DNA from: Escherichia coli
GTDB taxonomy: Bacteria > Pseudomonadota > Gammaproteobacteria > Enterobacterales > Enterobacteriaceae
Strand: one strand, 5' to 3'
DNA: 64,000 nucleotides
NCBI RefSeq assembly: GCF_030013205.1
Contig: NZ_CP122648.1
Shown: one piece after another, positions 10,353 through 10,569 of the stretch
How the letters are laid out: every line of letters starts with the position of its first letter
Numbering within the stretch: the stretch's first letter is position 1
Program-made: the position numbers and the translations under genes
Notes under the pieces: generated by a model
Told to the model about the DNA's origin: nothing
The model's database searches: none
What the model saw: the letters and a program-made list of their open reading frames with translations, nothing else

Positions 10353-10511
10353 ACGCTAATTCCTGTTACTCTGGTATGCCATTCAGTATGCCATTAGTCT
10401 CTCACTTCACTAAGAATACATTAGATAACATCGGACAGCAAAAATTGTAATGCATTGTTTATAATGAGGTTATATAACACTCCCGGATTAAGTCAGATTT
10501 ATTTCAGGCGG

Positions 10512-10526
10512 TCCCCCTCACCGCCA
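10512..10526 (+). other. att core-like remnant resembling a tRNA-Ser 3' end
   Basis: tccccctcaccgcca resembles the 3' acceptor/T-arm end of tRNA-Ser(GGA) (…CCCCCCTCACCGCCA, recalled); lies just upstream of the integrase 5' end. Confidence 0.4.
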
Positions 10527-10540
10527 TCTTTAAAGAAGAG

Positions 10541-10569
10541 CTCGTACGAAGGTACGGGCTTTTTTTTCG
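10541..10569 (+). terminator. Intrinsic terminator (hairpin plus T8)
   Basis: ctcgtacgaaggtacgggc followed by tttttttt; positioned as the original terminator of the tRNA whose 3' end forms the att core. Confidence 0.5.

What the first reader, a model, noticed from the sequence alone, without database searches (positions are those of the whole stretch)
10507..10569. tRNA-Ser 3'-end-like core plus terminator between the integrase and dgcT
tccccctcaccgcca (10512-10526) resembles the last 15 nt of tRNA-Ser(GGA) and is followed about 15 bp later by a hairpin plus T8 terminator, the arrangement expected for the displaced original 3' end of a tRNA after integration. There is no full tRNA here, so this looks like the distal att site.
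Basis: partly seen in the sequence, partly recalled or inferred. Interest (0 to 1): 0.4.

Follow-up and report, generated by a model that had tools for sequence, protein, structure and literature searches.

The report
Distal attachment site of serX island
This is the far-end junction (attR) of a roughly 37 kb mobile genomic island inserted into the E. coli serine tRNA gene serX, and it is an ordinary, already published kind of site.

Summary
Window 10513-10526 (CCCCCTCACCGCCA) matches the last 14 nt of tRNA-Ser(GGA) serX exactly. Everything from 10513 rightwards, including the hairpin (10540-10559) and T8 (10560-10567), is serX's native downstream sequence. In 1136 of 5426 complete E. coli genomes, an intact serX runs straight into this sequence and then dgcT. 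In the closest relative (K_EC180, 99.98% identical), intact serX with the second copy of the 14-mer lies 37,023 bp upstream, outside the window.

The adjacent P4-type integrase (9144-10352, minus strand) is 97% identical to the O157:H7 OI-48 integrase. The literature describes the same 14-bp repeat (TGGCGGTGAGGGGG) for OI-43, OI-48 and the Shigella SRL island, with the integrase next to a "cryptic ser'X".

New details seen here:
- Tandem GTATGCCAT motifs lie on both island arms and are candidate integrase arm sites.
- A 6-bp inverted repeat flanks CCCCCTC.
- The island carries a replacement terminator for serX.
- An AlpA-type candidate excisionase lies at 6302-6562.

This is already known and of low interest.

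The parts
10513..10526 (+). 14-bp att core and direct repeat CCCCCTCACCGCCA, the 'cryptic ser'X': the last 14 nt of tRNA-Ser(GGA) serX
   Evidence: It is identical to the serX 3' end. It occurs once in the window and twice in the relative's 93 kb, 37,023 bp apart. It is the reverse complement of the published OI-43/OI-48/SRL-PAI repeat TGGCGGTGAGGGGG (PMC3064760).
10507..10525 (.). 6-bp inverted repeat GGCGGT (10507-10512, island side) and ACCGCC (10520-10525) around the 7-bp CCCCCTC. These are candidate core-type integrase binding sites flanking a candidate overlap region. This is inference.
   Evidence: Read directly from the sequence and seen as a stem in the fold. It is invariant in six related attR sites at serX and serW. 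It is absent from attB and attL, where the left side is GAATCC.
10532..10567 (+). Native serX intrinsic terminator: A-tract 10532-10539, stem-loop 10540-10559, T8 10560-10567. It is probably bidirectional and may also terminate the convergent dgcT.
   Evidence: RNA fold -20.5 kcal/mol, z -5.2. It is contiguous with intact serX in 1136 empty-site genomes. The scan flags a terminator-like site on the minus strand in the same hairpin. The dgcT stop codon lies 64 nt away.
10374..10395 (+). Tandem GTATGCCATT x2 with 12-nt spacing in the island arm between int and the core. Candidate arm-type integrase binding sites (P arm).
   Evidence: these are the only two copies in the 64 kb window. A matching tandem pair GTATGCCATC x2, with the same spacing and strand, sits 56 nt beyond the core at the other island end (L002 34454-34475). 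The motif is kept in O157, O111 and serW islands. The integrase has an Arm-DNA-bind_3 domain.
9144..10352 (-). P4-family tyrosine integrase of the island, 402 aa, transcribed away from the att site
   Evidence: Pfam Arm-DNA-bind_3, Phage_int_M and Phage_integrase. It is 97% aa identical to the O157:H7 OI-48 integrase. It is full length with candidate catalytic residues R246, K273, H337, R340, H363 and Y373, placed by motif.
6302..6562 (+). AlpA-family small DNA-binding protein, a candidate excisionase or recombination directionality factor of the island
   Evidence: Pfam Phage_AlpA, E 6.9e-19. It is annotated as an HTH regulator in K_EC180. The role is inferred from the family, not tested.
1..10512 (.). 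Right-hand 10.5 kb of the ~37 kb serX island. It carries IS1 and IS2 insertions, a DUF3987 gene split by IS1, Gp2/YfjJ-like genes, alpA and int. The left 26.5 kb and intact serX lie outside the window.
   Evidence: Synteny with K_EC180. Empty-site alignments break at 10512/10513.
10631..12121 (-). dgcT (MASE4-GGDEF diguanylate cyclase), the chromosomal flank. It is not part of the island.
   Evidence: Pfam MASE4 and GGDEF. It lies directly next to serX in empty-site genomes.

Best explanation
Window 10513-10526 plus the following terminator is the distal junction (attR, called 'cryptic ser'X' in the literature) of a roughly 37 kb genomic island. The island belongs to the SRL-PAI / OI-43 / OI-48 / SpLE1 family and is integrated into the 3' end of the tRNA-Ser(GGA) gene serX.

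Inferred mechanism:
1. The island's P4-type tyrosine integrase recombined a circular island (attP) with serX (attB) inside the shared 14-bp sequence CCCCCTCACCGCCA.
2. The island's own copy of the 14-mer now completes serX at the proximal junction. That copy is followed by an island-borne hairpin and T6 terminator.
3. The chromosomal copy, with serX's original terminator, was pushed 37 kb away and sits next to the integrase promoter region and dgcT.
4. The stranded terminator probably still works as the dgcT terminator on the other strand.
5. Excision would reverse the event by integrase-mediated recombination between the two 14-bp repeats, probably helped by the AlpA-family protein at 6302-6562.

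Shown here: the junction anatomy, the empty site, the second repeat, and the identity of the integrase.

Inferred: the crossover position (7-bp overlap CCCCCTC between the 6-bp inverted repeats), the arm-site role of the GTATGCCAT pairs, the excisionase role of AlpA, and whether the island can still excise.
For: - **Core.** 14/14 identity to the serX 3' end, stopping at CCA.
- **Empty site.** serX joined to window 10527 onwards is contiguous in 1136 of 5426 genomes. One is CFSAN018748, which has the same flanking protein alleles as K_EC180.
- **Breakpoint.** Empty-site alignments begin exactly at 10513. attL halves of the reconstructed attP begin at the first core base.
- **Second repeat.** Intact serX plus the second 14-mer lies 37,023 bp upstream in a 99.98% identical relative, and there is no other copy.
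- **Junction counts.** attL-type junctions occur in 1355 genomes and attR-type junctions in 1142.
- **Integrase.** P4-type domain architecture, 97% aa identity to the OI-48 integrase.
- **Island ends.** Both ends are 94-98% identical to those of O157 OI-48.
- **Literature.** PMC3064760 reports the same 14-bp repeat for OI-43, OI-48 and SRL-PAI, a P4-family integrase beside cryptic ser'X, and measured excision. PMC7545054 reports integrase-dependent excision of SRL-PAI from serX.
- **Terminators.** Both fold strongly.
- **Other site.** The same int-attR module is also found at serW.
Against: - The intact serX and the second repeat are not in the window. They are inferred from near-identical genomes.
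- No contiguous attP junction exists in any of the 5426 assemblies, so there is no direct sign of a circular form or tandem copy. This is expected for finished chromosomes.
- The island is riddled with IS elements and pseudogenes, so it may be a fossil.
- The arm-site and overlap assignments rest on sequence pattern only. The related att sites are too similar (94-98%) for conservation to discriminate.
Confidence: 0.95

Rival explanations
1. The site is an inert scar. It was made by integration as described, but the island in this lineage can no longer excise, and the 14-mer and flanking motifs have no present function. Only the hairpin still works, as the dgcT terminator.
For: The island has heavy IS1, IS2, IS3 and IS30 load, many pseudogenes and a split DUF3987 gene. 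No attP junction appears in any assembly.
Against: The integrase is full length and 97% identical to that of OI-48, an island that excises at about 2e-4 (PMC3064760). The AlpA ORF is intact. Both 14-mers are perfect and both tandem arm motifs are intact. A near-isogenic strain with a precise empty site exists.
Confidence: 0.3
2. The resemblance to a tRNA 3' end is chance, or the fragment is a decayed local tRNA pseudogene unrelated to integration.
For: The repeat is only 14 nt, and no tRNA-like fold or Rfam tRNA hit exists here.
Against: The expected number of chance hits is 4.8e-4. The match ends exactly at CCA and is followed by serX's own terminator, as 1136 empty-site genomes show. A second copy sits at the intact serX 37 kb away with island DNA between them. 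The literature describes the same repeat.
Confidence: 0.01
3. The ser'X fragment plus terminator is expressed as a small RNA of about 60-110 nt, driven by read-out from the island arm. It would be a stable two-hairpin transcript with a function of its own.
For: 10507-10567 folds into two strong hairpins ending in a U-tract (-30.7 kcal/mol, z -5.7). There are weak sub-threshold resemblances to terminator-bearing sRNA models such as MicC (32.9 bits against a gathering score of 90).
Against: No plus-strand promoter-like site lies upstream. The Rfam hits are far below gathering score and are driven by the terminator alone. Both hairpins are fully explained by att-site and terminator roles.
Confidence: 0.03

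Closest known systems
OI-48 / OI-43 (tellurite-resistance and adherence island, SpLE1) of E. coli O157:H7, integrated in serX / serW
   Same: It has the identical 14-bp direct repeat (PMC3064760). The integrase is 97% aa identical. The arrangement is the same, with the integrase beside the cryptic ser'X fragment and intact serX at the far end next to ghrA. The attR arm is 94% identical and the attL arm 98% identical, including the replacement terminator and the GTATGCCAT pairs. The serX-proximal module is the same: DUF4942, DUF5983, cbtA, cbeA and antirestriction genes.
   Different: The cargo differs. There are no ter, ure or iha genes in the relative's island. Instead it carries type I restriction-modification genes, hhe, TOTE fragments, a group II intron and many IS elements, in about 37 kb against about 87 kb. 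The chromosomal flank here is dgcT directly; O157 has ycdU and further genes between.
[quoted passage not shown]
   Same: It uses the same 14-bp repeats at serX and a P4-related integrase that is needed for precise excision, with serW as an alternative site (PMC3064760; PMC7545054). The same int-attR module was found here at serW.
   Different: The SRL cargo (multidrug resistance and fec genes) was not seen here. The SRL sequence itself was not available to compare; the link runs through the O157 integrase, which PMC3064760 reports as 99% nt identical to the SRL integrase.
Satellite phage P4 and P4-like islands at tRNA genes (CP4-57 at ssrA, KpLE2 at leuX, PAIs at selC/pheV)
   Same: The integrase has the same domain architecture (Arm-DNA-bind_3, central and catalytic domains). 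It has an AlpA/Vis-type small partner. It integrates into the 3' end of a tRNA gene and regenerates the gene.
   Different: From my own knowledge, the integrase gene in most P4-like islands lies directly after the intact tRNA and reads in the same direction. Here it lies at the opposite junction, antiparallel to the tRNA and beside the displaced fragment, so the core is inverted relative to the integrase gene. The core is short (14 bp) and does not reach the T-loop.

Membership tests
SRL-PAI / OI-43 / OI-48 / SpLE1-type islands at serX or serW | 14-bp direct repeat TGGCGGTGAGGGGG equal to the last 14 bp of serX/serW | tested here: met
   Window 10513-10526 is its exact reverse complement. It is identical to the serX 3' end. 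The published sequence is in PMC3064760.
SRL-PAI / OI-43 / OI-48 / SpLE1-type islands at serX or serW | P4-family integrase of this lineage lying next to the cryptic tRNA fragment | tested here: met
   The Pfam architecture fits. It is 97% aa identical to the O157 OI-48 integrase. The integrase start codon is 160 nt from the core.
SRL-PAI / OI-43 / OI-48 / SpLE1-type islands at serX or serW | Intact tRNA-Ser(GGA) carrying the second repeat at the other end of the island | tested here: met
   It is not in the window. It is present 37,023 bp upstream in K_EC180, which is 99.98% identical, and in the other 100%-match genomes.
SRL-PAI / OI-43 / OI-48 / SpLE1-type islands at serX or serW | A precise empty site (attB) in strains without the island | tested here: met
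   1136 of 5426 genomes have serX contiguous with window 10527 onwards. The sequence is shown.
SRL-PAI / OI-43 / OI-48 / SpLE1-type islands at serX or serW | Integrase-dependent excision and integration at this site | not testable with these tools
   Only literature on relatives is available. No attP junction was found in assemblies.
Functional tRNA gene | Complete cloverleaf recognised by tRNA finders | tested here: not met
   ARAGORN finds no tRNA in the window, and there is no Rfam tRNA hit in 9800-11000. Only 14 nt of the tRNA are present.
Intrinsic (rho-independent) terminator | G+C-rich hairpin directly followed by a U-tract | tested here: met
   There is an 8-bp core stem with loop GAAG and T8, extended by A/U pairing. 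The fold is -20.5 kcal/mol, z -5.2. The simple scan reported only the minus-strand version. Termination in vivo was not tested.
Complex tyrosine-recombinase attP with arm-type sites (lambda/P4 paradigm) | Repeated arm motifs on both sides of the core, and inverted core-type sites flanking a 6-8 bp overlap | tested here: inconclusive
   The motifs are present: GTATGCCAT x2 on each arm and GGCGGT/ACCGCC around CCCCCTC. The related sites are 94-98% identical throughout, so conservation cannot single the motifs out. Binding was not tested.

The most novel reading that the evidence does not exclude
The most novel reading the evidence allows is a concrete attP architecture for this integrase lineage. 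Two tandem GTATGCCAT(T/C) arm-type sites would lie on each arm, about 118 nt to the left and 56 nt to the right of the core. The strand-exchange overlap would be the 7 bp CCCCCTC, bracketed by the inverted hexamers GGCGGT and ACCGCC. The core would be inverted relative to the integrase gene compared with classical P4-like islands. I could not establish whether these features have been mapped before, because Turner et al. 2001 and 2004 are not held in the library. A more remote possibility is that the stranded ser'X plus terminator is transcribed as a small RNA.
Probability: 0.4. Interest if true: 0.15.

Novelty: already known. Interest (0 to 1): 0.07.

Why it matters
The site marks the exact right-hand boundary (10512/10513) of a horizontally acquired island in a porcine ETEC/O139-like E. 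coli. That is useful for annotation and for designing junction PCRs that track island gain or loss. Beyond this it adds nothing conceptually. The 14-bp serX/serW repeat, its integrase and the excision behaviour have been published for SRL-PAI and O157:H7 OI-43/OI-48. The proposed arm and core sites would refine a known system only if confirmed.

Tried and rejected
- **Rfam scan** of 9800-11000 at E<=1 gave only sub-threshold hits (MicC 32.9 bits against 90, anti-hemB, Thr leader), all driven by the terminator hairpin. Rejected.
- **Promoter scan** found no plus-strand promoter upstream of the fragment, so there is no support for a small RNA. The terminator scan missed the plus-strand terminator and reported only the minus-strand version, so the region was folded directly instead.
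- **Reconstructed attP** (island right end, core, island left end) was searched in 5426 complete genomes. None holds it contiguously, so no tandem or circular form is recorded.
- **Conservation test of the arm motifs** on six attR sites at serX and serW failed because the sites are too similar (mean 96%).
- **Base composition** does not mark the boundary, because dgcT and pga are also low in G+C.
- **Primary SRL-PAI papers** could not be read. Turner 2004 (PMC353151 and its DOI) and Turner 2001 (PMC95444) are not held.

Full report
**The observation**

The sequence reads ...tttcaGGCGGT CCCCCTCACCGCCA tctttaaagaagaGCTCGTACgaagGTACGGGCtttttttt....
- The hairpin is at 10540-10559 and the T8 run at 10560-10567.
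- ARAGORN finds no tRNA anywhere in the 64 kb window.
- Rfam gives nothing at gathering score in 9800-11000.
- The flanking ORFs are a 402-aa ORF on the minus strand (9144-10352) and a MASE4-GGDEF protein, dgcT, also on the minus strand (10631-12121).

**Where the window comes from**

Window 9000-12200 is 100% identical to a group of porcine ETEC and O139:H1 E. coli chromosomes. Window 1-12500 aligns to strain K_EC180 at 99.984%. In K_EC180 the gene order is ghrA, tRNA-Ser(GGA), about 37 kb of accessory DNA, tyrosine recombinase, dgcT, pgaABCD. The accessory DNA contains:
- DUF4942, DUF5983, cbtA, cbeA and antirestriction genes;
- type I restriction-modification genes;
- hhe;
- a group II intron;
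- many IS elements;
- alpA-like and DUF3987 genes.

The window starts inside this accessory DNA, about 26.5 kb from serX.

**Three-way junction comparison**

- Empty site (CFSAN018748): ...GGGGGTTCGAATCC CCCCCTCACCGCCA TCTTTAAAGAAGAGCTCG...
- serX-proximal junction: ...GGGGGTTCGAATC(C) CCCCCTCACCGCCA GATTACAAGCGCATG...
- Window: ...TTTCAGGCGGT CCCCCTCACCGCCA TCTTTAAAGAAGAGCTCG...

The shared block is exactly 14 nt. It corresponds to the last 14 nt of the tRNA and ends at CCA.

A synthetic join of serX to window 10527-10830 is found contiguous in 1136 of 5426 complete genomes. One of them has the same ycdZ, ycdY, ycdX and ghrA protein alleles as K_EC180. When the window junction is searched, empty-site genomes align from query base 184, which is window 10513. 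When a reconstructed attP is searched, the proximal-junction halves start at the first core base.

In 93 kb of K_EC180 the 14-mer, even with 2 mismatches allowed, occurs only twice: at the serX terminus and at the site matching window 10513. The two copies are 37,023 bp apart. The chance expectation for an exact 14-mer in the window is 4.8e-4.

The site is a displaced tRNA 3' end with its own terminator, forming the distal att site.

**What it belongs to**

The ORF at 9144-10352 has the P4-type integrase architecture of Arm-DNA-bind_3, Phage_int_M and Phage_integrase. It is 97% identical in amino acids to the integrase at the same position in O157:H7.

Bielaszewska et al. 2011 (PMC3064760) state the following:
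- OI-43 and OI-48 are flanked by perfect 14-bp repeats TGGCGGTGAGGGGG, which is the reverse complement of window 10513-10526.
- The repeats are the last 14 bp of serW and serX.
- They are identical to the repeats of the Shigella SRL pathogenicity island.
- The P4-family integrase sits at the end that carries the cryptic ser'X.
- OI-48 excises completely in about 2e-4 of cells.

A review (PMC7545054) records integrase-dependent precise excision of SRL-PAI from serX, with serW as an alternative site. I found the same int-attR module at serW, on the clpA side, in two genomes.

Both island ends are shared with O157 OI-48: the attR arm at 94% and the attL arm at 98% identity. Only the cargo differs. 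attL-type junctions occur in 1355 genomes and attR-type junctions in 1142.

1. At the proximal junction the island supplies a new terminator for serX as well as the 14 nt. It is AAGCGCATGTTA-loop-TAACATGCGCTT followed by T6, and folds at -17.5 kcal/mol, z -6.1. It is conserved in O157.
2. The stranded native terminator folds at -20.5 kcal/mol, z -5.2. It has an A-tract on its 5' side and lies 64 nt past the dgcT stop codon. The scan flags it on the minus strand. It probably still terminates dgcT. This is inference.
3. The motif GTATGCCAT occurs in the window only as a tandem pair with 12-nt spacing at 10374 and 10386. The only other tandem pair in the relative's island region has the same spacing and strand. 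It lies 56 nt beyond the core at the other island end. This is the expected layout of arm-type sites for an integrase with an arm-binding domain. It is inference only, because related att sites are too similar for conservation to be informative.
4. In attR, and therefore in attP, GGCGGT and ACCGCC form a 6-bp inverted repeat around CCCCCTC. This suggests core-type sites flanking a 7-bp overlap whose left edge coincides with the left edge of identity. This is also inference.
5. An intact AlpA-family ORF at 6302-6562 is the likely recombination directionality factor, judged by family analogy.
6. From my own knowledge, most P4-like islands place the integrase gene directly after the intact tRNA. 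Here it lies at the distal junction, antiparallel to the tRNA. This matches the published OI-48 maps, so it is a property of this lineage and not an anomaly.

**Mechanism and status**

Site-specific integration took place within the 14-bp core. It regenerated serX at attL and stranded the original terminus and terminator at attR. That much is shown.

Whether this copy can still excise is open. In favour of activity:
- the integrase and alpA are intact;
- both repeats and both arm motif pairs are perfect;
- a precise empty site exists in a near-isogenic strain.

In favour of a fossil:
- the island is riddled with IS elements and pseudogenes;
- no attP junction appears in any assembly, although none would be expected in a finished chromosome.

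**Verdict**

Interest is low.

Noticed in passing
L002 34380-34397 (K_EC180), L006 (O139:H1 P15-25), L005 (ETEC4067): The C-run at the serX T-stem/acceptor junction differs among near-identical island-bearing genomes. ETEC4067 and empty sites have 7 C, K_EC180 has 6 C (an 87-nt tRNA), and P15-25 has the T-loop as GAAC followed by 8 C. These look like homopolymer assembly errors, but real damage to serX at attL cannot be excluded.
   Followed up: partly
L008 1738-2052; L010 1742-2056; also O26 11368: In several genomes RefSeq annotates one or two 'RtT sRNA' copies directly downstream of the cryptic ser'W or ser'X terminator. The window has no such element between the terminator and dgcT, and Rfam found none.
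   Followed up: no
window 4807-6213 (-): A 468-aa ORF rich in Y, K, N and F, with no Pfam match. It is not annotated in the K_EC180 RefSeq record. It lies next to the alpA-like gene, and its 3' part overlaps the end of an IS2 copy, so it may be a truncated island gene of unknown function.
   Followed up: no
window 7694-8391 (-), within 6578-~8900: An IS1 copy splits the DUF3987 (primase/helicase-like) gene of the island. In strain ETEC1701 a further IS1 interrupts dgcT (H1).
   Followed up: no
window 17032-18357 (+) vs L001 28033-29357: pgaC is a complete 441-aa ORF in the window but is annotated as frameshifted in K_EC180. This is probably the single gap seen between the two sequences elsewhere, or an assembly error in K_EC180.
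   Followed up: no
window 10631-12121 (-): The longest dgcT ORF is 496 aa from a TTG start, whereas RefSeq annotates 455 aa (1368 nt). The true start codon is unresolved.
   Followed up: no
L001 1-12200 and L002 38600-50000 (outside the window): In K_EC180 the left part of the same island carries defence-type cargo: a type I restriction-modification system, a second disrupted RM/HNH locus, the anti-phage gene hhe, a TOTE-system primase fragment and a group II intron. In other words, an OI-48-type integration chassis carries a defence-island payload.
   Followed up: no
one search hits H141, H142 (strains 162.2, SY3626): Some genomes show only the attL half (serX plus P' arm plus DUF4942) and no int/attR half. 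This suggests islands truncated at the integrase end, which could no longer excise.
   Followed up: no
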